A stretch of 60,287 nt of DNA, filler included, from Hausera hauseri (lineage: Eukaryota): the NCBI GenBank assembly GCA_046269625.1. It is 10 parts of 10 records of this genome, joined end to end, with 100 filler letters (N's around TTAATTAATTAA, not from the genome) between each part and the next. Parts side by side here need not be neighbours in the genome. Positions count along the whole stretch, not along the records: positions 1 to 8,002 come from JBJURY010828749.1; 9 more parts are not named here. One strand, given 5' to 3'. Made by a program: the position numbers and the translations under genes. Positions 1 to 58,270 of this stretch are shown in pieces. The notes below the pieces were generated by a model. That model saw nothing but the letters and a program-made list of their open reading frames with translations, did not search any database and was not told where the DNA came from. The first letter of the stretch is position 1. Every line of letters starts with the position of its first letter.

Positions 1-1703
1 AAGATATGCTAAATTTTAAAGGTTCAATCCAGTGTAATCATTGCAAAAAATTTGGATATATCGCCAAGTCCTGTCCAGAAGTTAAAATAGTGCAGGCGTC
101 AATGCCACCCTATGCCAAATCGCCAAAGCGATGCAATACTAGCTCGAAACTGTTCAACTCAAACAAACATGATGAATGTAAATAAATTTTGTTACAACTG
201 TAAACAAAGTAGTCACACTTGGAAAGATTGCCCCCTGCTAATCAATTGGGTAGATTGAAAATATTATACGAAAACAGAAGTGCTGTATTTGGAAGTAAGA
301 ATAACCAATTAAAGAGAAAACATAAAACCGATGGTTATTGATGCATTATATAGTTGTACAGAATGAGAAATTAATCAGGACGACTATGATGACGAAGTAG
401 TTAAATTTTTTGATAGTGATGAAGAGAAACTTATTGATAATAATTACGACGGATCACAAGCAGCTGGCTGTAGGCACTAGTACCCTCAAGATAAAAATGA
501 ATCCAATAATGAATTGAGTTCTGTTGAAATAGATTTGTTAGAAGTGTCAAAAATATGTCGAAATTCTGTTGGAAAGTGAAGCTGTAAGTTTTATAGATGA
601 CTTAAACATAAATTGTTTAAGGGCACCGACCCTTGATACTAGTGATTATAGTGATGAAGATGTAACCACTGAACCTGACTTTGATTCCCTCTTAATTTTG
701 AATAATGAAAATAATGATGGAAGCATTTCAATAAATATAGAGTTTAGTACGAATTTCGATGTTGTATGCAATGAAAAGTTGAATTTTGCAAATCGTGACA
801 TTCTGAATAAAACTCTGCATTGCAATAATTCTATGGAAGAATCAAATGTTGAAACCGTTTAATACATTAGACGAAGTTCGACAATTTGGGAATTTTGAAA
901 CTGAACTGGAAAAATAATTGATGAATTAGATGAAAAAATCAAATCGTATTAATTATGTATAAAATGATAATCGATGTTTAAGAATTGATGACATACTTGA
1001 TATGGATAAGTTCGAAAAGCATACCAGATGATTCTGAAATAAAATTACATGGAAAAGTAAAGGAAGTAAGTACTGTTTTTTAAAACGTTGGCGAAATATG
1101 TCGATAATGACTGAAAATCAGTACTCGATGATTAAAAAAGAAAATGAGGTAGATTCGGAAGAATTCGAAGGCGGAATGAAAACCGATTTACGAAAAAGAA
1201 TGGAGAAGTTAAAACTCCTGGAAGGATTACACTATTTATCAAAGAAAGATGCTATAGACTTGAAGAACTATGAAAATTTCAAGAACAAGAAATTAACTAA
1301 AGAAAAGACAGATATTCAAACATTTACAACCGTTACAGAAATAAACCAAATAAATTTAGAAAAATTCTTAATGCATATCCTAGGAAAAAGCTGTTTTGGT
1401 TTAAATGAGGGCGTATATAAAATGTTTTAGAATTAAATAGAAAAGTATGCTGAAGTAGAAACACGTTTGAAACCCCAATGGTTCGATGACTATTTTTTAA
1501 AGTGTCAATGTAAACACTGTTTTAACGAAATAACCAACACAATAAATGAATTTCGAAAAATAACACTGGACAACAAGAAAACTTCTCTTCTTTTAAACAG
1601 TGTTTTATAACAAATCGATCTTGCTGAGTCCAAAACTGTCATCCACTTTTGTGTATCAGGAACAGTTTCGGGAGACGTGAGAATTTAGATTATCATTGAC
1701 ACG
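1..1703 (+). mobile_element. Decayed LTR-retrotransposon gag/protease remnant
   Basis: Two zinc knuckles in the first 240 bp (CNHCKKFGYIAKSC, CYNCKQSSHTWKDC), acidic ORF fragments at 569-862 and 1098-1430, and a protease-like stretch VIHFCVSGTVSGDVRI*IIIDT that breaks off at about 1703. Confidence 0.55.
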
Positions 1704-1859
1704 TGATGTGTATACACATAATTACAAGCCACACAAAGTGTAAATTTAGTGTATATGCGTTAAAGTATGGTACAATTTAACGTATAATATAATATAGTTT
1801 GACGTATAATATATTTTAATGTCATACAGTAATCGTAGGAATCAAGTGTCTCAATACAA

Positions 1860-3490
1860 GTACTTTGCATGTGCCTTTCTTTTATAACATGTAGTTGGTT
1901 TATCCCACTTCAGTGTCCAGCAGACGTCTGCGAGCATGTTGGGAGTCCATTTATCCTGGTAGCGCGATTACATTGTAGCTATTTGCTGATGGAAATGTTT
2001 CCCCTATTCGTCGCTGACATCGCCAAGATTGGGATGGAAGAATTCCAAATGTGAGTGGGGAATATAAATTTTTAGGGACATGTTGCAACCAAGTTGTCGA
2101 TATGCATAGTGAAGATTGTCAACAAGTTGAACATAGTTTTCCTCGCTATGGTTTCCCGGAAAATCTCTCGTAATGACTTTGAATGCATCCCATGCAGCAA
2201 ACTCTGTAGGGTTGAAGGTGGTAATAAACTGTTCACCTTTGATTAATTCCCTGATCTGAGGTCCCACAAAAACCAATTCTTTAATCTTGGCATCATTAAT
2301 TCTAGGAAACCTTGACTTCAGGTACTTAAAGCCATCACCCTCCTTGTTCATCCGTTTAACAAAATTCTTCATCTGGTCAAGTTTCACATGAAAAAATGGC
2401 AGGTATATTTTCTGTGGATCAACCCGTGGCAGATTAGCAATACTTTTCATACCAGGAACTAGTACCTGACTAGGATGCCAATCACTCTTTGTGTAATGGT
2501 ATTTCTTATCACGGCTGTCCAATTCATACAGGAATCAACAGTACTTGGTGTATCCGGATTGAATGTCGATCAGAAGTCCGATGACTTTAAAGTTTGCGCA
2601 GATATGTTAACTGTGCTTTAAGTAGTCAATGAAGTGTAAGTGTCTTCATATTCTCATTTGTTTCCTTCATATGAACAGCATGACTAATTGGAACAGAAAG
2701 ATAGAGGTTACCATTGTGGAGCAAGACTGCTTTGAGACTTAGAGTGGAGGAATCGATAAAAAGGTTCCACTCTGATGGTTTATATTCTACGCCAAGAATC
2801 CTTATCAATCCATTAATATCACTGCAGTAGCATACAGAGTCATGAGAGCTGAAGAACGGTAACAAATCCTGTGACTGTTGTCGGAAGATTGACACTTTGG
2901 TCCCCGTAGCAAGTAAATTCCAGACCTGAAGTCTGGAAGTTAACAATTTTCCTTGATTTTTGGACAAGCATAAGTCCCTCACTAAGTCACTTAGATCTGC
3001 CTGAGTTAATATATGTGGCACTGACGATGTCGATTTAGTGAACTCTTCGTCATGCTCCATTTCGACATCATCACTACATGTAGATTCACTGCTACTCAGC
3101 TCGTACGACTGAGGAGGGTAGGGAACTGGGAGGTCATCCGAGTGAGAAATAGGCCGCATTCCTGAAGAAAAATTAGGATAGGTGATGTGTTTCTTGCTTT
3201 TATCAGAGAAGCCCTAAATGTTTGTCATGCAAAGGTAGCGGTCTGTGACATGATCCGTTGAGTCCCTCCAATTCATGGGATGTGAAAACGGCATGGGTTT
3301 CCACGAACTTTTCAACAATGATCGGAGAGCCATTGTACATCGTGCGCAGCTATAGTGCGGTGCCCATACCTTCTCTTGATCGCCGACATTGCACTGGAAA
3401 TACAATTCATATGCTTTTGCTACAAGTGAGTTCATATTTGGCGATGAATAATTAATGTAACTTCACAACATATATAACAGAAGGAATCCG
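1860..3490 (-). mobile_element. Chapaev3-type (CMC superfamily) DNA transposase pseudogene
   Basis: Frameshifted ORFs 3214-3435, 2626-3159 and 2004-2522 carry DSFCYIC, KAYELYF..GDQEKVWAPH..C..C, LFIDSSTLSLKAVLLHNGN, ICADFKV, HSHLEFFHPNLGDVSDE and RYQDKWTPNMLAD, which I recognise as Chapaev3 transposase motifs. Confidence 0.75.
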
Positions 3491-3935
3491 TCTCTTTTTA
3501 ACTATGTCGAGATATAGCACCAACGTTCCCTCTAATTTTTGTTCATGATGCGCGGAAAAATAAGGGTGTGCGCAAAAAAAGCGTGATGTAAAATTTTAGT
3601 GCGCGGCATTTATGAAAATTTTACATTAAAGAATGTTAGAAACTGCATTATATTGCAGTCTTCTGCATAGGAAATTAGACATTTTGTATACTGTTACAGT
3701 GCATGTGCGAAGTTTTACAGAATCATTTTTATGCACACAATTTTACAGTTCACAAACGCACTGACACATTGCAAATTGGGAATTGCGATATTTAAGTGGG
3801 AAATATTTTAAAAAAATTAAATAAAGGTAAAAAATAATCAAGTAGTTTTATTTAAAAAAGTCACAATCGTTTAATCAAGGCTATAGTTATTTGAATTATT
3901 TCTATTATTTATCCCCGTCAGGAAACAAATTGGCG

Positions 3936-5957
3936 CTAGTCATTTCTGGAAGTATTCAGACGTCTGTCTTTTAATGACATCCATCTTTTAAGCACATCGT
4001 CAAGATTGATCTGATGTCCATCATTCTGGTAAGATTTAATTCTCATAAGCATGTCTAAATGTAACTCTTCCAGTCTATTTCTAGATTTTGTTTTTATAGT
4101 GTTCATTAGACTAAATCCACGTTCACAATCTGCGCTTGATGCTAGAAATGTAGTACAAATATCCAATAGAATGGCAATGTTGCTGAATTGTTCCTCGCTG
4201 AATACAAACAGAACCATCTCGACGAAAGTCTGCAGCAACCCACATTTCTTTTTTTCAGCAAGCACAAACCTTAAGTTACGATACTCATTCATAAGTTTTG
4301 GCAGAATGTCATCATGATTTTCCAGGAAGGCTGCATATTTAGAAGCCAGTGCTGCAAGTTCTTCTTGACCGAAATTGAAATCTGAAGTATTAACTAACGC
4401 TGATATCTCAAAGATTCGCCACAGCATCAACTCATTTTCAGGGAAACGAGAGTCTAGGTGTAAACACAGACATTCGACAAATCTTAGGATAGAACTCATG
4501 TTTAAATCCTCGTCGTTTTCAAGTATTTTAGTTACCTCTTCGGTCCAGTGCACATTTTCACCAAGGTACTGGACATGGAGCTTTGTGATCCTTGCTTTTA
4601 CAAACTGGTGTGCCTCGATGGTCGTAAGATTTTTTCTCTGCAGCAGCTTGCATAATTCAGCAAGTTCACCAATAACTTCATCAAAGACAATCAGAGCAAT
4701 ACGAAACTGAGGATCCCTTAGTTTCTTCATACAGTACTTATGAACTGGATCATTAAGAAGGCGCACCTGCTCCTCACAGTATTCAGTCAACGCTTTTATG
4801 TTTCTCAGTACAGCTCGTAATGCAAAGTGCCGAGAAAGCCACCTGACCTCACTCAATGGTCTAAAGGCAAGAGAATCACATTCCACTACGTTAGCTAGTT
4901 CGATGAACTGTGCTTTTCGTACTGAAGACCTGCTGAATAACGTGTATACTGTTCTAAGAAATGTTTCAATGTCTCCCATTAAAGGTACTTGTTTGCAAGC
5001 ATCTTCTATGCCTAAATCCTCACGATGAGCAACACAGTGTTGTTCCATTAGATGTGGAATACGTCGGCGAAGAATTGCTGCAACTCCATTGTTTTTGCCT
5101 AACATAACCGATGCACCGTCTGAGGTAAACATAACCATTTTCTGCATGTCCAGTGAATTCTCTTTATAAAACTCTGTTATTGCTGATTCAACAGATTTAC
5201 TGTCACATGTCGTCACAGGCAAAATTCCAACGAATGTTGTCTTATAAACATTACCGTCATGTGGTCGAAATTTTGCATATAAAATCAACATTTTTGTCGT
5301 TGATATATCTGTGCTTTCATCTACTGTTAATGTGTGAAACTTTGCATTGCGAATTTCGCTAATTATAGCATTCTTTACTACAGAATTGATGGAAGCAACA
5401 AACTCAAAAGCGTAATTCTTACTACGCCAGTTATCAGGGATTGAGAGATACTTGGCCATATGGTTGTGTATGTCTTGAACTGCATTCATAGATGTGTTCA
5501 TGTTGATAGCCAAGAGAACGTTGTCAATCAGAATTTTGACCTTGTCATATTCAGCACTTTTACGTTGTGCTGCTTCTTGTCTCATGCTTCGATCAGCAAC
5601 ACTTTCTGTAAGCATTCGCACTAGATGTCCTGATTGTACAGAACGAAGTATCTGTACAGCATCTATGTGTACTTTTTGAGTGATATGTCGTTTAAGATAA
5701 TCTAGCTTCCAAGCCTCCCACCTCTTCCCTGTGGAGAATTCACCTACAATTTTTGCTTTCAAGCAAATTTCACAAATAACAGCGTCATTAGTTTCACAAT
5801 ATTTAAAAATATCACCCAGTTTGACGGTCTGTTCTGATGACGAATCTGGTAGCGCTGCATGCACAAGTTCATTGAGCCATCCCGTTTTAAACGTCGATCT
5901 GCATTTCTTCTTAGCAGGCGATGAAGCTGACGGTTTCTGTAACTGACGTTTCGACAT
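3936..5957 (-). CDS. hAT transposase (ZNF862/KIAA1586-like), 673 aa, uninterrupted
   Basis: N-terminal CEIC...H zinc finger, catalytic motifs LTVDESTD and FTSDGASVMLG, CxxH (HCVAHR), EVRWLSR, and C-terminal dimerisation motif SSADCERGFSLMNTIKTKSRNRL. Confidence 0.93.
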   Translation of the reverse strand: MSKRQLQKPSASSPAKKKCRSTFKTGWLNELVHAALPDSSSEQTVKLGDIFKYCETNDAVICEICLKAKIVGEFSTGKRWEAWKLDYLKRHITQKVHIDAVQILRSVQSGHLVRMLTESVADRSMRQEAAQRKSAEYDKVKILIDNVLLAINMNTSMNAVQDIHNHMAKYLSIPDNWRSKNYAFEFVASINSVVKNAIISEIRNAKFHTLTVDESTDISTTKMLILYAKFRPHDGNVYKTTFVGILPVTTCDSKSVESAITEFYKENSLDMQKMVMFTSDGASVMLGKNNGVAAILRRRIPHLMEQHCVAHREDLGIEDACKQVPLMGDIETFLRTVYTLFSRSSVRKAQFIELANVVECDSLAFRPLSEVRWLSRHFALRAVLRNIKALTEYCEEQVRLLNDPVHKYCMKKLRDPQFRIALIVFDEVIGELAELCKLLQRKNLTTIEAHQFVKARITKLHVQYLGENVHWTEEVTKILENDEDLNMSSILRFVECLCLHLDSRFPENELMLWRIFEISALVNTSDFNFGQEELAALASKYAAFLENHDDILPKLMNEYRNLRFVLAEKKKCGLLQTFVEMVLFVFSEEQFSNIAILLDICTTFLASSADCERGFSLMNTIKTKSRNRLEELHLDMLMRIKSYQNDGHQINLDDVLKRWMSLKDRRLNTSRND

Positions 5958-6004
5958 AACGGTTTAATGATGATTAAATAATTAGCCGTAACACTTATAA
6001 TAAA

Positions 6005-6105
6005 CTAGATGTTAGTAGATTTAATTACTATATACTATAGATTTAATTATATAGATTTAATTACTATATGCTGTAGATTTAATTATATAGATTTAATTAC
6101 TAATT
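6005..6105. repeat. AT-rich tandem repeat (about 36-bp unit with TAGATTTAATTA core) upstream of the hAT ORF
   Basis: TAGATTTAATTA recurs five times; translation of ORF 6009-6323 shows the RFNYIDLIT repeat. Confidence 0.8.
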
Positions 6106-7059
6106 ACTTGTGTACAACTTTATTTGAATGGCGTCCTAGCGGGTTATGGCGCCGGAGGATGAGAACGAGGCTGGCCTATTTAAAAGAACAAATGTTGTGT
6201 CATTCGTTTTGCCATGCGTACACAATTCGGACAAATAGTCTGTTACCTGCGGTAAATACTATCAGGATTTTAGGCCAGAACATGGAATGTAATATTGATG
6301 ACAGCAATGACATTTCAGTTTAAAACCTTTTATTAAATAAATTACCATGATTATTGCACATGACGATTTACACACGTGTATTACAGTGGCTGATCAAGAG
6401 GTTATCCAGGAGGTTGGAGAGGGGACAGAGGTCCCCACCCCTCCAGAGCCCAACAGCACATGTAACAAAGTCTAATTTTACAATCCGGTACTTTACGTGG
6501 AAGCAGTCTATACTCTGGTGGAAAGCTCAGTATAGCGCTAGAAGCAAAAAGGAAATGGCCTCGTGCCTCGCGGACATTCTTCCTCGGCTCTGCGTACACG
6601 CAACCTTTTTGTTTTCAAACAGTCCATTTTCATAAACAATACAGCAATTATGACTGCGCGGTGACTCACAGCTGTTGCGCGGCCCCAGATAAATAGATGC
6701 GCGGCCGCGCAACCGCGCAGCTTAAAGGGAACAGTGCTCGGTACATTGGATACATCTATACGGTGCGGAAAATATTTTCCTCTGATATTGGAAGTTCCAT
6801 ATACCGAGGAGTTGACGGGGTTATCATGGCTAGTCATTATATTCGTCGGCAAAATTTAACTTTGTTAATTGTGAGAATAGCGTTTTCTTATATTTTTTGT
6901 TCCATGATGTCCAAGAAACTCATTTTAGTCTTTTAATATATTTATTCGTGGGTTTACTAGTATTTGGGTAATCATTATCATCATCGTTTTAACCGTTGAG
7001 TGCACTATATTGTGAATTATTCTCAATGTCTTCTCTTTTTAAGTATTCGTCTTTTCCAT

Positions 7060-8002
7060 TTTGCATTTTGATTTTCTAGAAAACAATTAGCTAGTGCAGG
7101 TATTACGACTACTAAAATCTTCCATGAGCATCCTATTTCTGGATGAATTCCTTATGCTTTACCAAGAGCGGTAAATATCGTTCGTATTGTACTAATTATG
7201 TAGTATATCGCTAAGAATCCCGAAGCTGCTTGTCCAAAGTATAAAAATTTTCCCCATATCTTTTCGATAACACTTCTCATCACTGTTTAAAGATAATCTC
7301 TTTCCACTGTGGCGAACCTTCTCTGTCCCATATCATTCTTATTGTCACTTCGATAATTACTCGTTGTCTGTTGTGGGAATAGTAACATTCGTCTGTAGTC
7401 TTCTAGATTCTGCGCCGTATAAATTCCTCCTTGAGGGATGCCCGTGAGCGGTTCAAATTTATGACCCTTGTTGGTTTATTAAACTAAGTTTTTCAGGTTT
7501 TTACATTTGTTCTCTTTTGGGCATTGGTATCCCCTGTTTGTTATTTATTTGGAACATGGGTGACATTAAAAGTGCAATTGTCAAGCAAAGTTGGTTTAAA
7601 ATTTGCTTCTAACAGAATTCTTGTTATTGGCATCACATATCTAAGTTCCCTTTTATAAACTATTGGTAGTTCAGANNNNNNNNNNTATCATTGCCAATTA
7701 CCCCATCTCCGAAAGGCATTACTGGTGCAACCATATCGAGATTGTTATTATCAAAGTAATATTATTTCGTACTATTTCATAGTTTAGTTTATATTCGTTC
7801 ATTCTTATCCATTCTTACATAATTCATTAGAAAATACTGTGTTCGTTTTACATCCCTTTTTGTCTAGTTTCGTTTTCACCACACGACTTTTGATTACAGG
7901 TATATTCCTTTGCAATTGGTTTCAGACATGTTTTCATTGAATTTACTTACTTATCGCACCGGTAAGTTTAAATCGCATCATATCTTCAGGATTCGTTGAG
8001 TA
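7060..8002 (-). pseudogene. Envelope/fusion glycoprotein pseudogene, chuvirus (Jingchuvirales) G-like, C-terminal half
   Basis: Manual translation across frameshifts gives ELPIVYKRELRYVMPITRILL..C..SPMFQINNK, GIPQGGIYTAQNLEDYRRMLLFPQ and KIWGKFLYFGQAASGFLAIYYIISTIRTIF..GCSWKIL. Order and spacing match chuvirus-like glycoproteins captured as env by LTR retrotransposons. Confidence 0.7.
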
Positions 8003-8203: not shown

Positions 8204-10330
8204 ATGGATAAATCAATCTTACAATCATTAAATGATGTTGAGGTCGGGATGGTAGAGACGCGATCTACTTACATGGCGGCCAACGCTTCAAGAGACTTCT
8301 TCAAGAAGAAATTGATGCCAAAAGAATTCCAGAAAGGTGACAATGTGGAAATTTTATTGGAAAATACGAGATATACTTCGACTTCATAAAGATGTCGGAG
8401 GCGAATCGGGAAACGGCGGTCCTGTGCCTATTGGCGGACGAAGCACAGGAAAAATACAATTTGGTGAACCAAGAGGTGAAAGGGTACTAAACCGGTTGCG
8501 AAAAGCATTTTCAAAACCCACATCGCTGTGCGGGTTATGCATGAGGCCTTGAACTACAGAATGAGGAGGGCAGAACCGGACGCCTACTTCAACAAAATTG
8601 AACAAGTGGCGACGAGCACTCTTAGCCACAAAGTAACACTGGAAGCTCTAACAGAGGAATTGATAAGTTAGTGTTTGGACAATCCAGAGATAAGAAAGGA
8701 AATTTACCGCTGTGACGAAAAAAGCGTCGAACAAATCAAGGAGAAAATACGGAAAGTCCACGAAGTGGCAACAAAGACGAAAGAGATAAACACAGTCAAA
8801 AAATACACTAGAGAGGGTCGACGTAGTTACCGGGATGTGGTGGTGCACAAATTTGACAAACCAAAACAGGAAAGGAATGATTTCAAACTGCACAATACGC
8901 AAGGAAAGAGCACGATGAAATGCTGATTGTGCCAAAAAAACGGGAATACAAGCAAGACATGCAAACTCCAACATGCACCAAGATGTTTTGGTTGGGGAAA
9001 AAAGGACACATTAACAGGAATTGTCCGGAAAGGAAACCCATAATATGCTGTGGGTGTGGTCAGCAAGGACACATAATGCGAAATTGCATAAACATAAAAT
9101 GCAATAGATGTCACAAGAGAGGGCACAGGGAAGAAGAGTGCTATACAAAATTGGACAAGAACAGAAGCAGACAAAATACGTATACCGACAATTTTAAACG
9201 TGCGGGATATGGTCAGAAAAGATATGGAGAGAGGGTGAACAGAAGGCACGCATACGTTGCAGATATTGACGAGGACTATGAAGAGTCCATCACAGAGTCG
9301 ACAAACCCAAAAGGCAGAGCCTCGAAAGAAGTGGAGCTAGTCGGGGAATTACATTAAATAACTCCAGAGGTTCCCAAAATATTGAAAGGAACGGACAAGG
9401 TATTGAAGAAATGAAGGAAAGAACAGAGGAAACGGTACGGATGTTAATGAAAAAGTAAATGTTTTGGGACCGAAAGAAAGAAGTACGATTTACGGAAAGT
9501 CAAAATGAGAACCTACATAAAGAGAGGATATTTTCCATGGAAGGATTGACGGAAAAGAGTATCACGTACGATAAAATACAAGGACGTCCAGGTATAAAAA
9601 TAAAGGTACAAGATAGATGGGAAGACTGCCTATTGGATACAGGGGCACGAGTGAACGTAATGAGTAGGAAGTTTTTGAAAGATGTATAGATGTCCAGCTG
9701 GAGAAATCAGATATCACGCTCCGTTGTGCAAATGGTAGCGTCCTAGACTGCATCGGCAAACTGGCCGTAAATGTGTAACTCATGGGTGTACAAAAGCGCG
9801 TAACATTCATAGTAGTGATATGCATATCACAGAAATAATAGGAGGAATGGAACTGCAAAAGACTTTTGGAATTGAATAAAGTTGGAAACAGAAAGACGGA
9901 GAGGAACAAAGGTATAAGATATGCAACTTAGAAGCAAAATTCGGTCGAAAAGTGACGAATGAAGAACGATTCAAAAGAGCGAAGGAGATTCTGCGGATAA
10001 ACAAAAACTCAGCGGTATGGAACATAGTGCGGAAGAACCAAGAAGTCTTCATGGCTGACAAGTGGGATACCGGCTGTACAACATTGATCAGGCATAGAAT
10101 AAACACAAAAAGCGCACCAATTAACATTAAACCGCATAGACAGCCAGTGAATCTAGAAAGCAAAATAGATAAGAACATTCAAAACCAGTGGGGAAACAAT
10201 ATCATCAAGAAATGTAATTCACCTGGAATACTCCTATGATCTGCGTCTGGAAGAAAGAAAAATGATGTCAGAAAATGCCTAGACTTTAGACAGTTGAACC
10301 TCGTCACAGAAAGACAAGCGTACCCCATAT
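8204..10330 (+). mobile_element. Ty3/gypsy gag-protease-RT(5') remnant
   Basis: Three CCHC knuckles in ORF 8920-9357 (first degenerate; CCGCGQQGHIMRNC; CNRCHKRGHREEEC), protease CLLDTGARVNVM in 9459-9689, and RT start (IRHRINT..PINIKPHRQP, CNSPWNTP, CLDFRQLNLVTERQAYP) truncated near 10330. Confidence 0.9.
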
Positions 10331-18488: not shown

Positions 18489-21377
18489 AACGTACCTAAT
18501 CCTTCTTGCCGACACACTTCTTTTGCAGTCTTTACACTAAAATCTGCAATCTCTACCCCGAACATTCAATCCATAGATTTTCTCATCGATACCAGTGCAG
18601 CGATCTTATTACTATCACTTTCTTCTCCGGTTTAGCATTCTTCACTTAAAACAAAACCTTTATACACCGCTTCCGGTCAACCCCTTCATATTTCCAGGTC
18701 ATGCAAATTGTCTTTCAATCTTCCACAATTTTCCTCAACATTTTACTGGACGTTTACAGTCGTTAGCGTTCAGACAGCAATACTTGGCTCCGATTTCCTG
18801 TCGCACTATAACTTGCTAGTTGATTGTAAACAACGATGTCTGAAAATAAATGCAATTGGAGACTGTAACGCACGAACAAACAGCATGCCGACGACAGCAC
18901 AGCCGGTGGTCAGGAGAAAATCTATCCTAAAAAAGTCAGTATCTCATTCTAATTCTCTTAACTATCATATTGTACTTCTTAAGTTTTTAAACGAGAACGC
19001 TGATAGTCAGTCGAAGTTTAATATTGGTAACAACGATCTTGTCGCTTCTGCAAAATCAATACACAAAATCACTTCCTCAAATACCGTCCTTAACACGACT
19101 ATTTTACATCAGATTCCACTAGATTTCCCACCAGAAATTAACTTACATTTATCAAGTACTGCTAACAACATCGGTTCATCGCCACCTCTAATGTTATGGC
19201 AATTACCTATAAGTTTGCAACAATTCATCAATACCTCTTATCCTCGTATACTTCAGAAAGATCGAAAATTCATTCCTGAAAAAGGCATCTGCCATCATAT
19301 CATTAAACAACACAAAATACTCATTCGTCAAAAGGTTCGTCTATTATCACCTCACATCAAGAAAACTGTAGTTACCACACCTTTCGGTCTTTACGAATAC
19401 TTATACATGCCTTTTGGTTTTCAGAATGCTGCTCAGACCTTTCAGCGACATGCCGATTCAATCCTTCAGACTTTCCTTTTGCGCATCCATATATTGATGA
19501 TATTTTAGTTGCTTCTTCTTTTATTAAACAACACGAAGAACATCTACGCTCTATCTTCAAACGACTTAATCAGCACAATCTATAGATCAATTTTGCAAAA
19601 TGTAACTTCTTCCAAAAACGCTTTAATTTTCTTGGACATATTGTCTCATCAAACGGCCATTCATCTCAGCCTGATCGAGTTGAGTCTGTTAAAAACGTCC
19701 AACTACCTAGGGCAACCACAAAAATACGCAGTTTCCTCGGTACCTTACATTTCGCCCACAAATATGTTCCATATTTTTTGGAACTCACGGCACATTTTGT
19801 CCACTTAAGCGGAGAAAAAACACCAGAAAATCCAGTGGACACCACAATTGGTCGATAGGTTTTATAGACTGCGCGAAGGACTAAAGATTGTTGAAATACT
19901 AGCATTTCCTAAGCCTGATGCCGAGCTCATCTTAACCACAGATGCATCAACCATCGTAGTAGGCGCCGTATTACATCAATTGTATAAAGGCGAAAATCAG
20001 CCTCTAGAATTCTTTTCCAGAAAATTAACACCACCATAAACAAAATATTCAACTTCCGATCGAAAACTACTGGCAATAGTTCTTGCCTTAAAGCATTTTT
20101 CCCACTCACTTACAGCTCGTCATTTCGTTATACAGACTGATCACAAACCTTTGATTAATATACTGACAATGAAACACCCTTCCACTCGATAAGAACGACA
20201 AATTTCATATTTGTCCACATTTAACTTCGACATTAAACACATTAACGGTGTTAACAATATAGTTGCCGATTTTTTATCAAGGTCAGTTGGTTCAATCAAT
20301 TTTATGCCGATTTTTACTCACTCACAACTTCAACAAAACCAACAATCTCAAGACATTATTGATTCTTTCAAATCTTGCAATATTGTAGACGGTGTGGCCT
20401 TAAACACGTACAAACCAGGTCAGTCTAAAATAATACTATCACCTGCCTTGAAAAAACAAGCATCCAACAGCGTATATTCACTACATCACCCTGGTGCTAA
20501 AACCACTTTTCGCTTACTCCAGCGACACTTAGTTTGGCCGTCAATGCGTTCTGATGTGCAGGAATGGGTTAAGGAATGCATGACTTGCCAAAAATATAAA
20601 ATCATTTAAAGCCACCACTAAATCATTTTCCCTGCACATCCCGTTTTGAATCCGTGCATATAGACCTCGCCGGCCCTCTCCCTTTAGACAACGGCCATCA
20701 ATTCATACTGACCATGATGGACCGTTCCTCGCGATGGCCAGAAGCCATCCCTCTACGGAGCAAAAGTATTGAAACTGTAGCTGACGTTTTCATCCTCACT
20801 TGGATTAGCAGGTTTGGATCACCTCGTTTATTCATCTTGGAGGCCCTCAATTTGAATCCAGTTTGTTTAAATCCCTTGTTAACCAGTTAGGAATCAATTA
20901 TTTATATACCACACCTTATCACCCTCAATCGAACGGCCTTCTCGGACGTTTCCACCGCACAGTGAAAACATCGCTTAGAATTTTCGCACAGTCCAACATC
21001 ATTTGGACTACTCCTCTTCCGTTCGTTCTGCTTGGCTGGCGGAACACTCCGTCCACTTCCACAGGATGTTCACCAACTGAAGCCTTATTCGGAACCCCTG
21101 TACGGTCATTGTTTGAACTAACTGCTGTAGAAGAGACTCCCGCAGATGAAATGATACGAGCAGCACAGGATCACTTCGCTACAATCAGCAAGGATTTGTT
21201 TTACAGGATACTACACAACAACAAAACATACATACCCGAAAACTTATACTCGTCAAAATTCGTATGGTTAAAAAATCAAAAACCGCGTGGTTTTCAGCCA
21301 CAGTATTTAGAACCCTATAAAGCAGTACAGCTGCATTTACATAATGCTATTATCCTTAAAGACGAAAAGAATTTGTA

Positions 21378-40510: not shown

Positions 40511-43385
40511 GAGTAAGTGTGAGAAATGTTTGAGAGCGAGAACGATTGCCAATAGTTCTCGGTCAAACGTGGAATATCGAGTTTCAGGTGCGGTTAGTTT
40601 GCGAAAGAAAAATTCCAATGGTTGGTTTTCTCCCTTGTAGATTTGGTGGAGTACAGCGCCTACAACAGTGGTTGACGCGTCAGTGGTGAGGAAGAGCTCT
40701 GCATCAGGTTTGGGAAAAACAAGGATATCAACGGTTTTGATGCCTTCACGTAGTTTGTCGAATTTTTCAACAAATTCAGGTGTTCATTGGATTGGTTGAT
40801 GTTTTTTGCCGCCGCTTAGGTGTGCGAAAGAAGCTGTTAATTCCGAGCAATATGGCACATATTTATGCATAAAGTGGAATGTGCCAAGGAAGCTACGCAT
40901 TTCGGTGGTCGTACGTGGCAATTGGATGTTTTTAAGGGCTTCGACTCGGTCTGACTGCAGGGAATATCCGTCTGGTGTGATAACGTGGCCTAAAAAGTTA
41001 ATGCGTTTTTTGAGAAGTGGCATTTGTCGAAGTTAATCTGTAAATTATGTTGATGAAGACGTTGGAATATTGCGCAAATGTGTTCGTCGTTCTGTTTGGC
41101 CGAAAATAAAACGACATAATGTCGTCGATATAAGGGTGTGCAAACGAGAAATCGGAAAGAATTGAGTCGATGTGTCGCTGGAAAGTTTGTGCGGCATTCC
41201 ACAAACCGAATGGCATGAATAGATATTCGTAGAAGCCAAACGGAGTAGTTACTGCGGTTTTTTCGATGTCTTCAGGTGCTGATGATAGGTGATGATAGGC
41301 TTTAATTAGGTCAATGGTGGAATAGATGGTGGTTAAATTAAGGCAATACAGGATATCCTTGATGAGTGGTAAAGGATGCGCATCCATGATGGTCAAGTTA
41401 TTCAGCTGCCGGTAGTCACCACATGGTCTAAAAGTACCATCCTTTTTTGTACCACGTGCAAAGGTGATGACCAAGGAGATTTAGAACGGCGTATTATGCC
41501 GGAACGTTCGAGCTCAAGAAATTCGGCTTCTACGGCCTGCCTACGGCGAGGTGACAGAGGCCGTACTTTTTGGCGTATTGGACGTTGGTGGTGTGTGACT
41601 GTGGTATAAGGTGCTGTTTGCGGGAGTAAAGGAACGGTCTTTTTAAAGTACACGTGGGCATGATTTGTTGAATTTCTGTAACGTTGTAGGTAGCTGTGAG
41701 AGATTCGGTGAAAGTGGTGGAACGGTTTGAGTGGTAGCGGATGCTATATGTGAGTTGTTACGTGATGTGCAGTCAAGTGGAATTTGGTGCAAGATGGTTG
41801 AGTTGAAAATGGTGTTGGCTGAGGTATTTTCGTCGAATGAGTTAGTGTTGGTGGCAGTACCACACCTATCGACATCAAATCTCAATTATATATCGGTGTT
41901 ATTGTTTAAGAATTTCCAAATTGAGTTATTATTATGAAAATTCGAATTATTGTTATAAAAAATCGAATTATTTGCGGACTTTTTAAGATTGACTTCCGCA
42001 TTACGGTCGACTGCGCGGTAGTCGAAACGCTATTTACATGTCCAGAAATGTCGCCAACGGTGCCTTTCCTCAAACATCGCTGGCTGCAGTCAACCAGTAG
42101 ATTGTAGTGAGATAGAAAGTCAGATCCAAGGATTGCCAATTGGACGTTAGCGACTGTGAACGTCCAGCGGAAAGATATAGAAAAATTTGGTAGCGTGAAA
42201 GACAGTGTAGCCGTGCCCGAGATGTGCAACGGCTGGCCTGAAGCAGTAAATAAAGGCTTAAGTTTGAATGGAGAGTTTTGTGCAGGAAAGGTTTGCGGTA
42301 ATAGAGAAATGACTGCCCCTGTATCAATGAGGAAGTCAAAAGATTGAGTTGTAGGGGCAGTAATTGCGGCTTTTAGCGTGAAGACTACAAAAGAGGCATG
42401 TCGGCGTTTAGATTGTGAAAGAGTGCCTTGGCCAGAGGTTACAGTGACTTCTGGTGGCAAAGTTAGTTTTTTGGAAAAGGAGAAGTGGGGCAACTGTTTG
42501 AAGTGAAGGCAGTACGTTCGTCGTTCGTATTGGATTCGAAGGTGCGTCCGGGAATACATTTACGTGGTTGATTTTTGAATCCTGCATGGTAAATGCAAAC
42601 AACGGTGCCCGAGGAAAATTTTTGTAAAATTGGCAACCCAGGCAGCATTTCTGTTGAATCGACGAACGCGCAGGCGACGGTGAGCGGTTTCGTGAAGTAG
42701 AACGGGCACGGGAAGCGGCAAAACCTTCTCGTATGGACAAGGACAATTCATTTAGTTTATTATTTATGTTGTTGATAGTTGCCTGCAATGCAATATTTTC
42801 AGCACGTAGCTGATTTAGCTGCTGTTGTATGGGCGTGTTAAGTGTTTGTGTGTCGTTAGTAGCAACTGCTGCTGAAACTACGGGTTGCGAATTTATGTTT
42901 AGGACGTTGTATATCCTATCGGCCACTTCGGCCAATTTTTCAAGCGGCGTGGAGTCTCCCACCACGGTAAGAAGGGCCCGGATTTGGATAGGTAGGGCGT
43001 TCATAAAATAATGGCGTATAAGATCCGGGTTATGTTTCCTAGTGACGCCAAGAGTACGCAAGTGTGCTAATGAAGTACGTAAGAAGTCACTGCGTTTTTG
43101 CGTGCCCAGTGCATTTTCGTTAAAGAAACGCTGCATTATGGAGTCAATGGAGGGTTCGGTCTGTTTTAAGACAGCGTCGAAGAGTTGGGTATAGGGATCA
43201 GGGTGCTGAAAGATCTCTAACAAGTTATGAATTGATGCTTTTATTGAGCTGGGTAGAAGATAAAGTAAGCTGTGGGCTTTAGATAAGGATTCTGTGATGC
43301 CATTAGACTGTAGCCAGAGTTGGTGGAAATAAAGCCACGTCTTACTGGACTTTTCGTTATCGATGAAGTATTCAGTGCAGAATAC
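40511..43385 (-). mobile_element. CsRn1-clade Ty3/gypsy retrotransposon, copy 2 (gag to RNase H)
   Basis: Gag is homologous to copy 1 (CTEYFIDNEKSSKTW...NALPIQIRALL). Protease FLIDTGA, RT SKSPWSSPLHVV, FRPCGDYRQLN, PYIDDI, RNase H LTTDAS. Frameshift heptamer AAAAAAC at 42466-42472. Confidence 0.93.
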
Positions 43386-53559: not shown

Positions 53560-54855
53560 AATATTATGATGCCTCACTTCGGCAATTTGATGGTTCATTT
53601 ACGGATGAAACAAAACGATGGCTGATAGATATGATTCATGCATACAAATTTTTTCGATGGCCATTTGTGCAGCTGTGAATTCTTGTTAACAAAACAAGCC
53701 AGAATTCTGTGGACAGATTTTTAAACAAAAAAGGGAACCAACCGTCGGACGAAGAGACGATAGTATGGTTTAAAACGTTTATGAGAAAAGTGAACCCTTT
53801 CGATGAGGTAGTCGAATTGGCCAACGTGCGTCAAAAAGAAGGGGAAAAGTTTTGGAAGGTAATACTGAAGAATTTTTGAAAGAATTGGAGAAAGCGGATA
53901 TTATTCGGAAATGAAAGTGAATGGAATTCGCCTTTAATGGTCGCTCAAAAGATGGAGTAATCCGAATTTGTTTGGATTTTAGAAAGTTAAATGAAATATC
54001 AAAGAAAATTTCTTTTCCAATGCCGGAAAGTCTGATCTTATTTGATGCGTTATGCGGTTCAAAAATTTTTTCAAGTATAGACCTCGGTAAGGCATATCAT
54101 CAAGTCGCGTTGGATAAAGACTCCCAACAAAAAACAGCCTTTTAACGCAATCACAACAACATTGTTTCAACCGCGTACCATTTGGCCTTTCAACTGCCCC
54201 TGGAACTTTTCAACGACTGATGAATACACTGTTCGAAGACTTACTGTTTGCGGGTGTCATATACTTAGATGACGTGCTGATTTTCTCAAAGATTATTTCT
54301 GAACATTGCAAACTATTAGAAGAGGTGATGAAAAGATTAAAAAATGTATATCTAAGAATGAATCCCAAAAAATGTTGATTTGGTGTTTCGGAGTTGACAT
54401 TTCTCGGACATACCATTAATGATCAAGGAGTGTCAACAAATCAACTAAAAGTAAAAGAGATCCCGATTTTCACAGTCCCAGTGTACGCGGTCGATGAGAA
54501 TTTTTAGGTCTGGCCAACTATTACAAAAGGTTTATCAAGCATTACACGTTCATTGCGGCGCCGTTACATCAGGCTTGCTAGAGTACACGTAGAGTTGTTT
54601 TGGTCAAAGGAGAGTGAAGAAAGTTTCAAGCTGTTGAAATTGAACCTGTGAGGCGCCAATATTAACCTTCATGGATCCAACAAAGGATTTTATTTTGGAT
54701 ACAGACGCATCATTTGGTGCAATAGGAGCGGTACTTAACCAAAAAATAGGAAATGAAAAGGCAGTAGAAAACGCGTCTAGAACACTCATCTTTTGAGAAA
54801 GGCTACTGTGTGACAAGAAAGGAACTGTTGGCATTACAAGAGTTTATGCTGCATT
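53560..54855 (+). mobile_element. Ty3/gypsy remnant from another family: gag fragment, RT, RNase H
   Basis: SEWNSPL, IRICLDFRKLN, FSSIDLGKAYHQV, RVPFGLSTAPGTFQRLM, IYLDDVLIFS and FILDTDASFGAIGAVL. Confidence 0.9.
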
Positions 54856-54955: not shown

Positions 54956-57900
54956 AGACTCCACGGCACTGGAAAAGTTAGCCGAACTGGCGGACAAAGC
55001 CTATGAAGTGTTGCACTCACACACAGCACCAATTGTCTCTGCGGTATTAACAACACACCACCAACAATAAAATGCAATGCTGCAGCAACTAATTTCGCAA
55101 TTACGCACAGAAAACGAAATGTTGCAAAAAAAACTTAATAATATAAATGAGAAATTAAATGAATGAACTCTGCCTCGATGAAGATTTTCTAGGGCTGCTT
55201 CCCCTGATGCATTTCGTTAACGACAAACACAGTAGCTTTCGCCCACGCGGTCATCTATCTGCTAATATCACGGAAAATTTGGCTACAATGTTCAGAAATG
55301 CTGCATCGGTTGTAAATTTTACACCGCCGATTTTAACACAAGTAACATCGTTTGCATCTATCACGCAAAACTTGAAACAACAGCACAAAAATGCCTATCC
55401 GGCTGTAACTGCAACACGCACAATAAAATCAACACTACTAAACTCACACAAAATAGTAGGCCAAACTCACCAGCTACAAAAAACTGATTTCGCCACTAGG
55501 ACACACGGCAAGTTCTAGCAAAGGCAACAACCTACAACAAAAAGATAGCCGACACATTTCTTTTGCTGTATTCACGTTGGAAGTAGCAGTCGTCATTCCA
55601 ACAAAGCAAAACATTAATTTTCTTATAGACGCCTGTGCAGTAATCTCTTTGCTACTACCAATACAGCACATCCAAAACAATTTCACTTAAAAAGCAACTG
55701 TTCACTGCGTTCGGTGAACCTTTACAAATTTTTAATATTACTAAATTACCTTTTACCCTACCAAATTTCCTGAACACATTCAAGTGGAAATTCACAGTAG
55801 CCAATGTACGCACACCTATATTAGGTTCAGGCTTTCTGTCCCACTATAATTTACTTATGGACTGCAAACGATGTTCCTTAAAGAACGGAAATAATATTAA
55901 TCCAATTAACAGCATTTCGGTAACCGCCCGGGCGATCGCTGCCAGGAAGTCAATACTGAAAAAAAGCGACTCCCGATTTGAATTATTTTTATACTTACTT
56001 ATTATTTGGAAATTTTTTGACGGCAACAAATACTATATTGCCTATTGCGTAGCACCAATTATTGATAGTACATCTGCCAACACTATCTTCAACACAAACA
56101 TACTGCACTTAATACTACCTAGTCACAACACCTCGTCTACAACTCATACTTCAACTGCATCCAGTCACGATGCATTGCCACTATCCGAAAACTTTTCATC
56201 GTTGCCCTCTGACTTACAGCAATATGTTTCGTCTTCCTGTACTCGTTTGTCACAAAAGGACAAATCATGCGTACCACCTAAATCCACCTTCCATCACATA
56301 GTAACAGCACATCAAAGACCAATACATCAAAAGGTCCGCATATTGTCACCTCGCCACAGATAGGCAGTGGAGGCTGAGTTTCTCGAACTGGAAAAATGAG
56401 GAATAATTAGAAGATCCAAATCCCCTTGGTCTTCACCACTACATGTGGTTCCAAAAAATATTGTACCTTTCGCCCATGCGGTGATTACCGCCAACTCAAC
56501 ACTATAACAATAATGGAAATCCTTCACAGGCTCCATGGTTACACTATTTTTTCTTGCATTGATTTGCACAAAGCATACCACCAAATTCAGTTGGTTCCAG
56601 CAGACATTCCGAAAACGGCTGTCATTACACCTTTCGGCCTTTTCGAATACCTTTTTATGCCTTTTGGACTCCGTAGCGCCTCCCAGAACTTCCAAAGGCA
56701 TATTGATACAGTTCTCTCAGGTTTAGATTTTGCTTATCCCTATATCGATGATATACTAATCGCATCATCTTCCTCGAAACAACACTCCGAACACTTGCGT
56801 GTAATCTTCCACCGCTTGCACCAAAACAACTTGCAAATTAATTTCTCCAAATGCTCATTTTTTCAACATAAAGTCAACTTCCTAGGACATATTATCAGCT
56901 ACTCCGGACATTCATCTCATCCAGAGCGCATCACACAGCTCAAAAACATACAGCTACCACGTACATCAACAGAAATGCGTTCTTTCCTCGGAACCTTGCA
57001 CTTTAATCACAAATGTATTCCACACTGTTCCACTCTAACCGCTCCTTTTGCGTCACTAAGCTCTGGCAAGAAAAACAGCCTATTCAATGGACCGCAGGGC
57101 TAGTCAACGCTTTCCATCATATCAAAAACAATCTAAAACCCGTGGAAATCCTGGCCTACCGCGACTCCCATGAAGAACTTTTCTTAAAGACGGATGCATC
57201 TAAAAGAGCTACAGGTGCTGTCCTACATCAATTTAAAAATGGATCCAATGAGCCATTAGAATTCCTTTCTCGAAAATTCAAGACACAAGAGCAAAGATAT
57301 TCCACCTTTGACAGAGAGTTTCTTGCAATGGTTCTTGCCGTAAAACACTTTAAGCATCTGTTAACCGCACGAACCTTTACAATACAAATGGACCACAAGC
57401 CCTTTCTTCAAATTCTCACTATTAAATCACCTTCTCCGCATCAGAAGAGGCAAATATCATATTTATCCACATTTAGTTTTGAAATTAAGCACTTAAACGG
57501 AGTCAAAAATTTAGTAGCTGTCCTTCTGTCCCGATCGGTCAACTCGATTGATTTTACACTAATTTTCCCCCAAACCAAACTTCAACAAAACCAACCACCT
57601 CCTGACGTCCTTAAATCTTTTAAATCGTGCAAAACCATCAAGGGTGTGGCCTTTGACACCTCAAATCCTAATAATCCTAAAGTCATCCTTTCTGAATCGC
57701 TTCAAAAAGAAGCATTCAACAACATCCATTCGTTGCATCATCCTGGTGCCAAGGCCACTTTTCAACTCTTACAACGCCAAGTAGTATAGCCGTAGATGCG
57801 CTCTAATGTGCAGGCATGGATTAGGCAATGTGTGGCATGCCAAAAATACAAAGTTACTAAGCACTTAAAGCCACCAGTATATCATTTTCTCTGCATGTCT

Positions 57901-58270
57901 CGATTTGAATCTGTTCACATTGACCTTGTAGGCCAACTACCCTTAGACAACGGCCATCAGTTCATCCTCACAATGACGGACGGTTTCTCGCGATAGCCAG
58001 AGGCCGTCCTGCTTCGAAGCACTAATAAAACCAATCGCACGTTTTCATACGCACTTGGATCAGCAGGTTTGGATGACCTCGCCACATCATTTCGGTCCAA
58101 GGCCCACAGTTCGAATCCAACCTGTTTAAAGCTTTTGAAAATCGATTGGGAATTAACCACATTTACACGTCACCATACGGTGCCCACGGCGGCCGGTGCC
58201 CTTTGGCCTACTTGGTCGGGCGCGGCCGGGCGTCCGTTGCCGCCGCGTCGGATCCATAGCCGGCCCGATC
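54956..58270 (+). mobile_element. CsRn1-clade Ty3/gypsy retrotransposon, copy 3 (gag C-terminus to partial integrase)
   Basis: DSTALEKLAELADK, heptamer AAAAAAC at 55478-55484, RT FRPCGDYRQLN...PYIDDILIAS, RNase H LKTDAS, integrase HHPGAK and HIDLVGQLP. Coding sequence breaks at about 58178 into GGTGCCCAC, which matches the copy 1 LTR start. Confidence 0.93.

What the first reader, a model, noticed from the sequence alone, without database searches (positions are those of the whole stretch)
7060..8002. Hidden chuvirus-like fusion glycoprotein (env) pseudogene missed by the ORF track
No ORF is called here, but stitched minus-strand frames give ELPIVYK..YVMPITRIL, GGIYTAQNLEDYRRMLLFP and IWGKFLYFGQAASGFLAI followed by a transmembrane region. 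From established knowledge, these motifs typify Jingchuvirales glycoproteins and their copies captured as env by invertebrate LTR retrotransposons. Inference: this is either an endogenous negative-strand RNA virus gene or the env of an infectious retroelement. A gag/protease remnant sits on the same contig but on the opposite strand, so the carrier element is not demonstrated.
Basis: partly seen in the sequence, partly recalled or inferred. Interest (0 to 1): 0.7.

Follow-up and report, generated by a model that had tools for sequence, protein, structure and literature searches.

The report
Dead envelope gene of Burro-like retrotransposon
This is a broken piece of the predicted membrane-fusion (envelope) gene of an abundant virus-like jumping gene, whose better-preserved copies carry that gene between capsid and enzymes in one long protein, a layout already published for flatworm elements.

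Summary
The motifs are real. The X-read frame hits Pfam Monjiviricetes_fusion (E 5e-17). The remnant runs 6733-8002(-), is cut by the contig end and is broken by at least ten frameshifts and several stops.

The carrier is shown from other copies: 40 of 40 scored places match (1,336 candidates). It is a 13-kb Ty3/gypsy element with LTRs and a tRNA-His primer site. One frame of about 3,270 codons reads capsid, zinc knuckle, ubiquitin-like, Bcl-2-fold, envelope, protease, RT, RNase H, integrase, membrane protein. The envelope sits before pol, not after integrase (0 of 20 contigs). It groups with other internal-envelope polyproteins, apart from a named chuvirus G (25% identity).

So it is neither a direct viral insertion nor a BEL/Pao Anakin. 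The layout is published for planarian Burro (PMC6431247) and GAG-ENV-POL errantiviruses (PMC13524379). This scan found it before in other genomes. A new, compact member; this copy is dead.

The parts
6733..8002 (-). Remnant of one copy of the GAG-ENV-POL Ty3/gypsy family; matches residues of about 1148-1610 of the family polyprotein; cut by the contig end at 8002
   Evidence: blastn homology to a sibling down to 6733 and tblastn E 2.7e-72; 72-76% nucleotide identity to four natural copies
7248..8002 (-). C-terminal half of the env ectodomain, broken by frameshifts and stops
7678..7687 (.). 10-N assembly gap inside env; siblings have about 60 more bases here, so this need not be a deletion
7613..7672 (-). 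ELPIVYK..YVMPITRIL motif
7374..7430 (-). GGIYTAQNLEDYRRMLLFP motif
7185..7247 (-). Predicted transmembrane helix of env
   Evidence: sequence; hydropathy of the matching residues 1445-1467 in a family copy
7077..7136 (-). Second hydrophobic stretch, inferred membrane-associated or re-entrant
   Evidence: residues 1472-1496 in a family copy; role inferred from topology
6733..7076 (-). Basic and acidic cytoplasmic tail and linker towards the protease; the protease itself is absent from this contig
   Evidence: tblastn 7039-6836 at 43% identity; no protease, RT or integrase hit in 1-8002
3521..6736 (-). Neighbour that cuts the remnant: hAT DNA transposon with a 675-aa transposase frame (3936-5963) and imperfect terminal inverted repeats; no target-site duplication
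   Evidence: Pfam DUF4371 and Dimer_Tnp_hAT; ends read; contigs of two other runs leave the window at 6736-6743

Best explanation
The stretch is a dead, truncated fragment of the env region of an abundant Ty3/gypsy LTR retrotransposon whose better-preserved copies encode Gag, a predicted class III fusion glycoprotein and Pol in one reading frame, and which likely used that glycoprotein to move between cells as an enveloped particle. Shown: the fragment, its breaks, the copy family, LTRs, primer site, domain order and purifying selection. Inferred mechanism: one polyprotein is threaded into the ER like a flavivirus polyprotein. Gag, the ubiquitin-like and the Bcl-2-fold domains stay cytosolic. 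An internal signal (residues 878-906) sends the ectodomain into the lumen, a transmembrane helix returns protease-RT-RNase H-integrase to the cytosol, and a second signal after integrase makes an accessory membrane protein. Signal peptidase and the element's protease would release the parts. This copy inserted, decayed, and lost its pol side at a hAT transposon end.
For: PF24664 hit of the window frame. 40 of 40 scored places in the genome match at 70-79% (1,336 candidates). Three contigs hold open frames of 3,270-3,279 aa and one of 3,031 aa among 150 scored. Pfam order capsid-CCHC-Bcl-2-PF24664-protease-RT-RNase H-integrase in four contigs, one of them ending before integrase. Of 20 contigs taken from the hits, 14 have protease downstream of env, 7 the Bcl-2-like stretch upstream, 0 RT or integrase upstream. 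LTR pair of 802-815 bp, 93.6% identical, K2P 0.052. Primer site complementary to the genome's tRNA-His in 11 contigs. RT closest to Ty3 among solved structures (E 1.6e-88; next 1e-56). Median pN/pS among stop-free copies: env 0.084, RT 0.056, Bcl-2-like 0.118, ubiquitin-like 0.155. Same layout in distant relatives (L096, 3,703 aa; 10 of 14 scanned top hits have a protease or pol after env). Hydrophobic segments at the predicted places.
Against: The window copy itself has no LTR, gag or pol, so its carrier is assigned by homology. The env ectodomain was not folded, and a profile search of solved structures gave no fusion protein, so class III rests on Pfam and on an atlas lead of 0.90 with low recognition. 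No purine-rich tract precedes the 3' LTR in five copies, and the target-site duplication of the one LTR pair is imperfect. Particles, processing and infectivity are untested. pN/pS used stop-free copies only, pairs are not independent and pS (0.75-0.84) is saturated.
Confidence: 0.93

Rival explanations
1. A direct endogenous insertion of a chuvirus (Jingchuvirales) glycoprotein gene, independent of any retroelement.
For: Same Pfam family as chuvirus G; a named chuvirus glycoprotein matches the family env at 25% identity, E 2e-49 pairwise; one Mononegavirales-type L fragment exists elsewhere in the genome, on a 642-base contig.
Against: The window frame is 58-64% identical to retroelement env against 27% to the chuvirus G. 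Homology continues past the transmembrane helix into the linker before the protease. The 17 internal-env sequences form one group (SH 100) apart from 26 stand-alone, chuvirus and BEL/Pao glycoproteins.
Confidence: 0.02
2. The env of a BEL/Pao element of the Anakin type, lying after integrase.
For: BEL/Pao polyproteins with a C-terminal PF24664 domain are among the relatives (P0008, P0009); published for mosquitoes (PMC7642597, passages).
Against: Those are 22-26% identical and fall outside the family's group. Family copies show no Peptidase_A17, DUF1759 or DUF5641, RT is Ty3-like, and 0 of 20 contigs have RT or integrase before env.
Confidence: 0.01
3. Same element, but env no longer serves cell entry: the family spreads inside cells and keeps the glycoprotein as a membrane anchor or assembly scaffold.
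For: No particle or infectivity data; one frame forces env to be made one-to-one with Gag and Pol, which is unlike retroviruses (established knowledge).
Against: The whole ectodomain, with 14 cysteines in the copy counted, is kept under purifying selection close to RT's (pN/pS 0.084 against 0.056) and over its full length in relatives at 35-40% identity. This rival concerns function only, not identity.
Confidence: 0.15
4. This copy is a host-domesticated fusogen or restriction factor.
For: None found.
Against: At least ten frameshifts seen in all four comparisons and 5-8 in-frame stops in three; contigs of run X1 match parts of the broken sequence letter for letter (X1 may be the source sample).
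Confidence: 0.01

Closest known systems
Burro / GYPSM1 gypsy-like LTR retrotransposons of planarians (Arkhipova and Yushenova 2019, PMC6431247; section 7 read whole; the primary papers it cites were not read)
   Same: One polyprotein with Gag and CCHC knuckle, ubiquitin-like domain, BCL2-like domain, env related to mononegavirus fusion glycoproteins in frame between BCL2 and protease, then PR-RT-RH-IN; accessory ORFs.
   Different: About 13 kb and 3,270-3,279 aa against more than 30 kb and 4,873-5,140 aa; no MATH, BIR or ankyrin hit; one knuckle; a membrane protein fused after integrase and a DEDDh-like second ORF, neither mentioned in that section. No Burro sequence was available for direct comparison.
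GAG-ENV-POL 'ancient errantiviruses' with HSV/gB-type env of Platyhelminthes, Bryozoa and Nematoda (Chary and Hayashi 2026, PMC13524379; abstract, section 5 part 1 of 2, section 6, passages, and rows of supplement 1 found by two words)
   Same: Ty3/gypsy pol, env between gag and pol, ectodomain between hydrophobic segments, multicopy.
   Different: Its main text does not mention Bcl-2 or a polyprotein. Its nine flatworm rows list no tRNA-His primer. Placement in its POL tree was not possible; five further supplements and the figures were not seen.
Anakin BEL/Pao elements and Jingchuvirales glycoprotein EVEs of arthropods (PMC7642597, passages; PMC10084718, abstract and Results)
   Same: Same glycoprotein family (PF24664) associated with LTR elements.
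   Different: Different superfamily and position; glycoproteins only 20-26% identical and in a separate group of the tree.

Membership tests
Ty3/gypsy LTR retrotransposons (Metaviridae) | pol order protease-RT-RNase H-integrase, with Ty3-type capsid and CCHC gag | tested here: met
   (family copies; the window copy lacks these parts)
Ty3/gypsy LTR retrotransposons (Metaviridae) | RT nearest to Ty3/gypsy RT | tested here: met
   best solved-structure hit Ty3 RT E 1.6e-88; next 9.6e-57; retroviral 1e-40 and weaker. No tree with named gypsy clades.
Ty3/gypsy LTR retrotransposons (Metaviridae) | LTR pair with TG...CA ends and tRNA primer site | tested here: met
   one pair, 93.6%; primer site in 11 contigs matching tRNA-His genes found by ARAGORN in 2 of 6 loci
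Ty3/gypsy LTR retrotransposons (Metaviridae) | polypurine tract and target-site duplication | tested here: inconclusive
   a conserved pyrimidine-rich motif, not a purine run, precedes the 3' LTR in five copies; LTR start known from one pair only; 4-bp duplication with one mismatch
GAG-ENV-POL errantiviruses (PMC13524379) | env between gag and pol | tested here: met
GAG-ENV-POL errantiviruses (PMC13524379) | gB-type five-domain ectodomain with fusion loops and cysteine bridges | tested here: inconclusive
   PF24664 E 1e-88 over 620 positions; atlas lead 0.90; ectodomain not folded; no solved fusion protein by sequence
GAG-ENV-POL errantiviruses (PMC13524379) | [quoted passage not shown] | not tested
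   no named sequences at hand
Burro / GYPSM1 | ubiquitin-like, BCL2-like and env domains in frame between Gag and protease | tested here: met
   Bcl-2: Pfam E 1.6e-5 to 8e-3, always under the curated cut-off; model pLDDT 68.7; VIA ranks 1-29 all Bcl-2-like, best Z 9.8, rmsd 3.1, 115 aligned. Ubiquitin-like: weak, Pfam E 0.14 here, 0.005-0.03 in relatives, ubiquilin E 0.01.
Burro / GYPSM1 | giant size (over 30 kb, about 4,900-aa ORF1) with MATH, BIR and ankyrin domains | tested here: not met
   13 kb LTR to LTR, 3,279 aa; no such Pfam hits. Filed as Burro-like, not as Burro.
Anakin (BEL/Pao with chuvirus glycoprotein) | Pao peptidase A17, DUF1759 gag, env after integrase | tested here: not met
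   present in P0008 and P0009 as positive cases
Jingchuvirales endogenous viral element | glycoprotein of the Monjiviricetes fusion family | tested here: met
Jingchuvirales endogenous viral element | nearer to viral G than to retroelement env, or flanked by N or L | tested here: not met
   58-64% to family env against 27% to a named chuvirus G; flank is retroelement linker and a hAT

The most novel reading that the evidence does not exclude
All internal-env gypsy polyproteins sampled here descend from one capture of a chuvirus-related fusogen, and the capture worked because the membrane anchor behind a Bcl-2-fold domain doubles as the env signal: cleavage would leave a membrane-tethered Gag-ubiquitin-like-Bcl-2 protein that both brings capsids to the budding membrane and blunts host cell death. 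For: the signal lies about 30 residues behind the W-x3-GGW motif; 17 of 17 internal-env sequences group together; the Bcl-2-like domain is under purifying selection. Against: only 5 of 22 proteins scanned match the Bcl-2-like profile at E under 1e-4 (several are cut at the N-terminus, two are BEL/Pao controls); one relative has a stop between the domain and the signal; the canonical NWGR motif (recalled) is absent; the tree rows were chosen by likeness to the family and are unrooted. Not seen in the passages read or in the listings of searches.
Probability: 0.15. Interest if true: 0.6.

Novelty: new member of a known kind. Interest (0 to 1): 0.2.

Why it matters
The locus itself does not matter: it is one dead fragment among many. 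The family is a compact (13-kb) version of the Burro layout, so it shows which parts of those giants are the core: Gag, ubiquitin-like, Bcl-2-fold, internal env and pol. It adds fold-level support for the BCL2-like domain, which the review read here reports as a motif. If the family makes enveloped particles it would be an example of an infectious gypsy element that uses a negative-strand-virus-type fusogen and carries its own cell-death regulator; that open question is not settled by this stretch.

Tried and rejected
Solved-structure searches by sequence with the window frame and with the env profile found no fusion protein. Two of three window frame pieces gave no Pfam hit on their own. A single-sequence fold of the Bcl-2-like region failed (pLDDT 38.9). 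Foldseek gave no hit at E under 0.001 for the alignment-based model, although all 36 listed PDB rows are Bcl-2-family and most top viral rows are viral Bcl-2; the VIA tool warns that Z under about 13 can be common for helical bundles. The atlas gave nothing useful for that domain (best 0.81). The profile of alignment A1 was swamped by overhangs of two whole proteins (ankyrin hits), so the Bcl-2-like domain was never searched against the protein representatives. Viral contigs held no relative (0 of 16 pattern hits). Sequencing runs: no RNA holder listed; all runs were contigs, so expression and copy number could not be judged. The accessory membrane proteins after integrase in this family and in L096 do not align (best E 0.06). 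The stop count against L030 is void (frame not set) and was dropped; raw indel counts (19-23 non-triplet per comparison) are inflated by alignment wobble. Earlier-findings look-ups by sequence were blank. The host taxon was not determined; earlier notes guess a flatworm. The window copy cannot be dated: its nearest sibling may be among the unscored candidates.

Full report
1. Observation. The window is a pack of ten stretches; stretch 1 (1-8002) is contig G000:C828749. The 164-residue frame read with X at its stops matches Pfam PF24664 Monjiviricetes_fusion, profile positions 449-605 of 653, at E 5.3e-17. No frame of 70 aa or more overlaps the finding.

2. Extent and state of this copy. Against a natural copy of the family, the window matches polyprotein residues of about 1148-1610 (tblastn E 2.7e-72), and DNA homology to a sibling runs down to 6733. 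That is the C-terminal half of the ectodomain, the membrane segments, the tail and the linker before the protease. The 5' side is cut by the contig end. The 3' side stops at the end of a hAT transposon at 6736, and no protease, RT or integrase is found in 1-8002. Four pairwise alignments give 72-76% identity. At least ten frame-shifting indels recur in all four, spread over about 7030-7960, and three of them give 5-8 in-frame stops; the fourth stop count was void. The copy is a pseudogene. Its age is not known, because only 40 of 1,336 candidate places were scored.

3. The carrier. All 40 scored places match at 70-79%. I fetched 20 of their contigs, chosen mostly for long flanks. 14 of 20 have a protease downstream of env, 7 of 20 a Bcl-2-like stretch upstream, 2 of 20 env alone, and none has RT or integrase upstream. 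A search with the upstream domain gave 3,291 candidates, 150 scored, among them open frames of 3,279, 3,270, 3,270 and 3,031 aa. Pfam reads these frames as Ty3 capsid, CCHC knuckle, Bcl-2 (weak), PF24664 (E about 1e-88 to 1e-91), aspartic protease, RT, RNase H, integrase. One contig has an LTR pair of 802-815 bp, 93.6% identical, K2P 0.052, enclosing about 13 kb. The LTR ends in CA and is followed, in 11 contigs, by a primer site complementary to the 3' end of the genome's tRNA-His. RT is nearest to Ty3 among solved structures. A second ORF resembles a DEDDh exonuclease without its first acidic motif. Among stop-free copies synonymous sites are saturated while pN/pS is 0.056-0.155 for six regions (9-29 copies each): many old sub-lineages, all under purifying selection, env included. 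The 5% LTR divergence shows that at least one lineage inserted much more recently than that split.

4. The glycoprotein. A profile of six env sequences finds 2,381 proteins at E up to 0.001 among 1.84 billion; the top rows are mostly long proteins with an internal env. Of 14 of these scanned, 10 have a protease or pol after it. Below them lie stand-alone proteins of 640-700 aa; of 10 looked up, one is named 'putative glycoprotein, Wufeng shrew chuvirus 2' and two fall in clusters with insect proteins. The family env is 25% identical to that chuvirus G. In a FastTree tree of 43 rows, the 17 internal-env sequences form one group (SH 100) apart from 26 stand-alone, chuvirus and BEL/Pao sequences; a 17-row IQ-TREE run agrees (100/100). 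Rows were picked by likeness to the family and the root is arbitrary, so neither donor nor direction follows. 'Chuvirus-like' is therefore fair as a family label, but this is a long-diverged retroelement env. The ectodomain was not folded.

5. The domains between gag and env. The Bcl-2 Pfam hit is always under the curated cut-off (E 1.6e-5 to 8e-3; missed in L025 and L077). An alignment-based model (17 rows, pLDDT 68.7, pTM 0.67) returns Bcl-2-family or viral Bcl-2-like chains at ranks 1-29 of 48,161 (Z 9.8, rmsd 3.1, 115 aligned, down to Z 5.7; first unrelated Z 5.6). All 36 listed Foldseek PDB rows are Bcl-2-family, though none reaches E 0.001. I take the fold as likely (about 0.85) and the function as unknown; the BH1 NWGR motif (recalled) is not in the sequence. 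The ubiquitin-like unit is supported only weakly. Five of 22 proteins scanned carry a Bcl-2-like stretch at E under 1e-4; P0006 and L096 do not score.

6. How it most likely works. Hydropathy places a signal-like segment at 878-906, two segments at 1445-1496 and another after integrase. Inference: co-translational insertion at the ER, with Gag-side domains and Pol in the cytosol and env in the lumen; host signal peptidase and the element's protease release the parts; env trimers on budding particles let the element enter other cells; the Bcl-2-fold, ubiquitin-like and dead-nuclease cargo act on the host. None of these steps was tested. The rival that env now serves only as an anchor stays open (0.15).

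7. What is known. Arkhipova and Yushenova 2019 (PMC6431247, section 7 read whole) describe planarian Burro elements with Gag, Ubi/SUMO-like, BCL-2 and an env hitting mononegavirus fusion glycoproteins, in frame before the protease, and call it the first such case. Chary and Hayashi 2026 (PMC13524379; abstract, section 5 part 1, section 6, passages, 19 rows of supplement 1) report GAG-ENV-POL elements with gB-type env in Nematoda, Bryozoa and Platyhelminthes; their other supplements and figures may hold close relatives and were not seen. Dezordi et al. (PMC7642597 passages; PMC10084718 abstract and Results) cover chuvirus glycoproteins in BEL/Pao elements and arthropod EVEs. Four earlier notes of this scan describe the same layout in other genomes; the wording 'compact Burro-like' is taken from one of them. 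The family works like Burro in layout but fails its size and MATH/BIR/ankyrin features, so I file it as a Burro-like GAG-ENV-POL Ty3/gypsy element, not as Burro. The host was not identified.

8. Verdict. Observation partly confirmed; interpretation partly supported. A dead env fragment of a new, compact member of a published kind. Interest 0.2. The boldest reading not excluded, one env capture for the sampled internal-env elements with the anchor behind the Bcl-2 fold serving as env signal, has probability 0.15 and would merit 0.6.

Noticed in passing
window 3521-6736: hAT transposon with a 675-aa frame. Parts of its 5900-6740 end are present at 97-100% identity in contigs of runs X2, X3 and X6, which carry other organism or habitat labels. 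Related hosts or horizontal transfer; not resolved. Its two flanks differ, with no target-site duplication.
   Followed up: partly
window 2004-3462 (-): Three frames that look like pieces of another DNA-transposon transposase with a cysteine-rich start (resemblance recalled); no Pfam hit.
   Followed up: no
   Followed up: partly
L072:3-2414: After integrase the polyprotein continues into a signal-like stretch, an ectodomain of about 390 aa without Pfam hit, a transmembrane helix and a short tail; L096 has an unrelated protein of the same plan there.
   Followed up: partly
L072:3815-3860; L021, L073, L075, L077: A conserved pyrimidine-rich motif ending in a C run stands where the polypurine tract is expected, in 5 of 5 copies looked at.
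   Followed up: no
G000:C33336 ends; G000:C44443: C33336 begins and ends with a 43-bp inverted repeat of Tc1/mariner look (recalled). In both contigs the second ORF precedes the LTR and the polyprotein: tandem elements or an assembly permutation.
   Followed up: no
L094:3058-3060: A distant relative has an in-frame stop between the Bcl-2-like domain and the env signal: mutation or read-through site.
   Followed up: no
P0177, P0020, P0005, L096: Relatives carry several protease-like domains in a row (up to 7 stretches in P0177), ankyrin and C2H2 domains, or doubled ubiquitin-like units.
   Followed up: no
P0021: An env-pol polyprotein of this kind is filed under a Flavobacteriaceae genome bin; probably animal DNA in the bin.
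   Followed up: no
L097 = G000:C536822: One Mononegavirales-type L polymerase fragment with a stop, on a 642-base contig (E 3.6e-24): a separate viral insertion or contaminant.
   Followed up: no
window 9961-10329, 19359-20979, 40520-41590, 53942-54787, 56453-57993: Other, unrelated gypsy pol remnants in other stretches of the pack (25-55% identity to this family).
   Followed up: no
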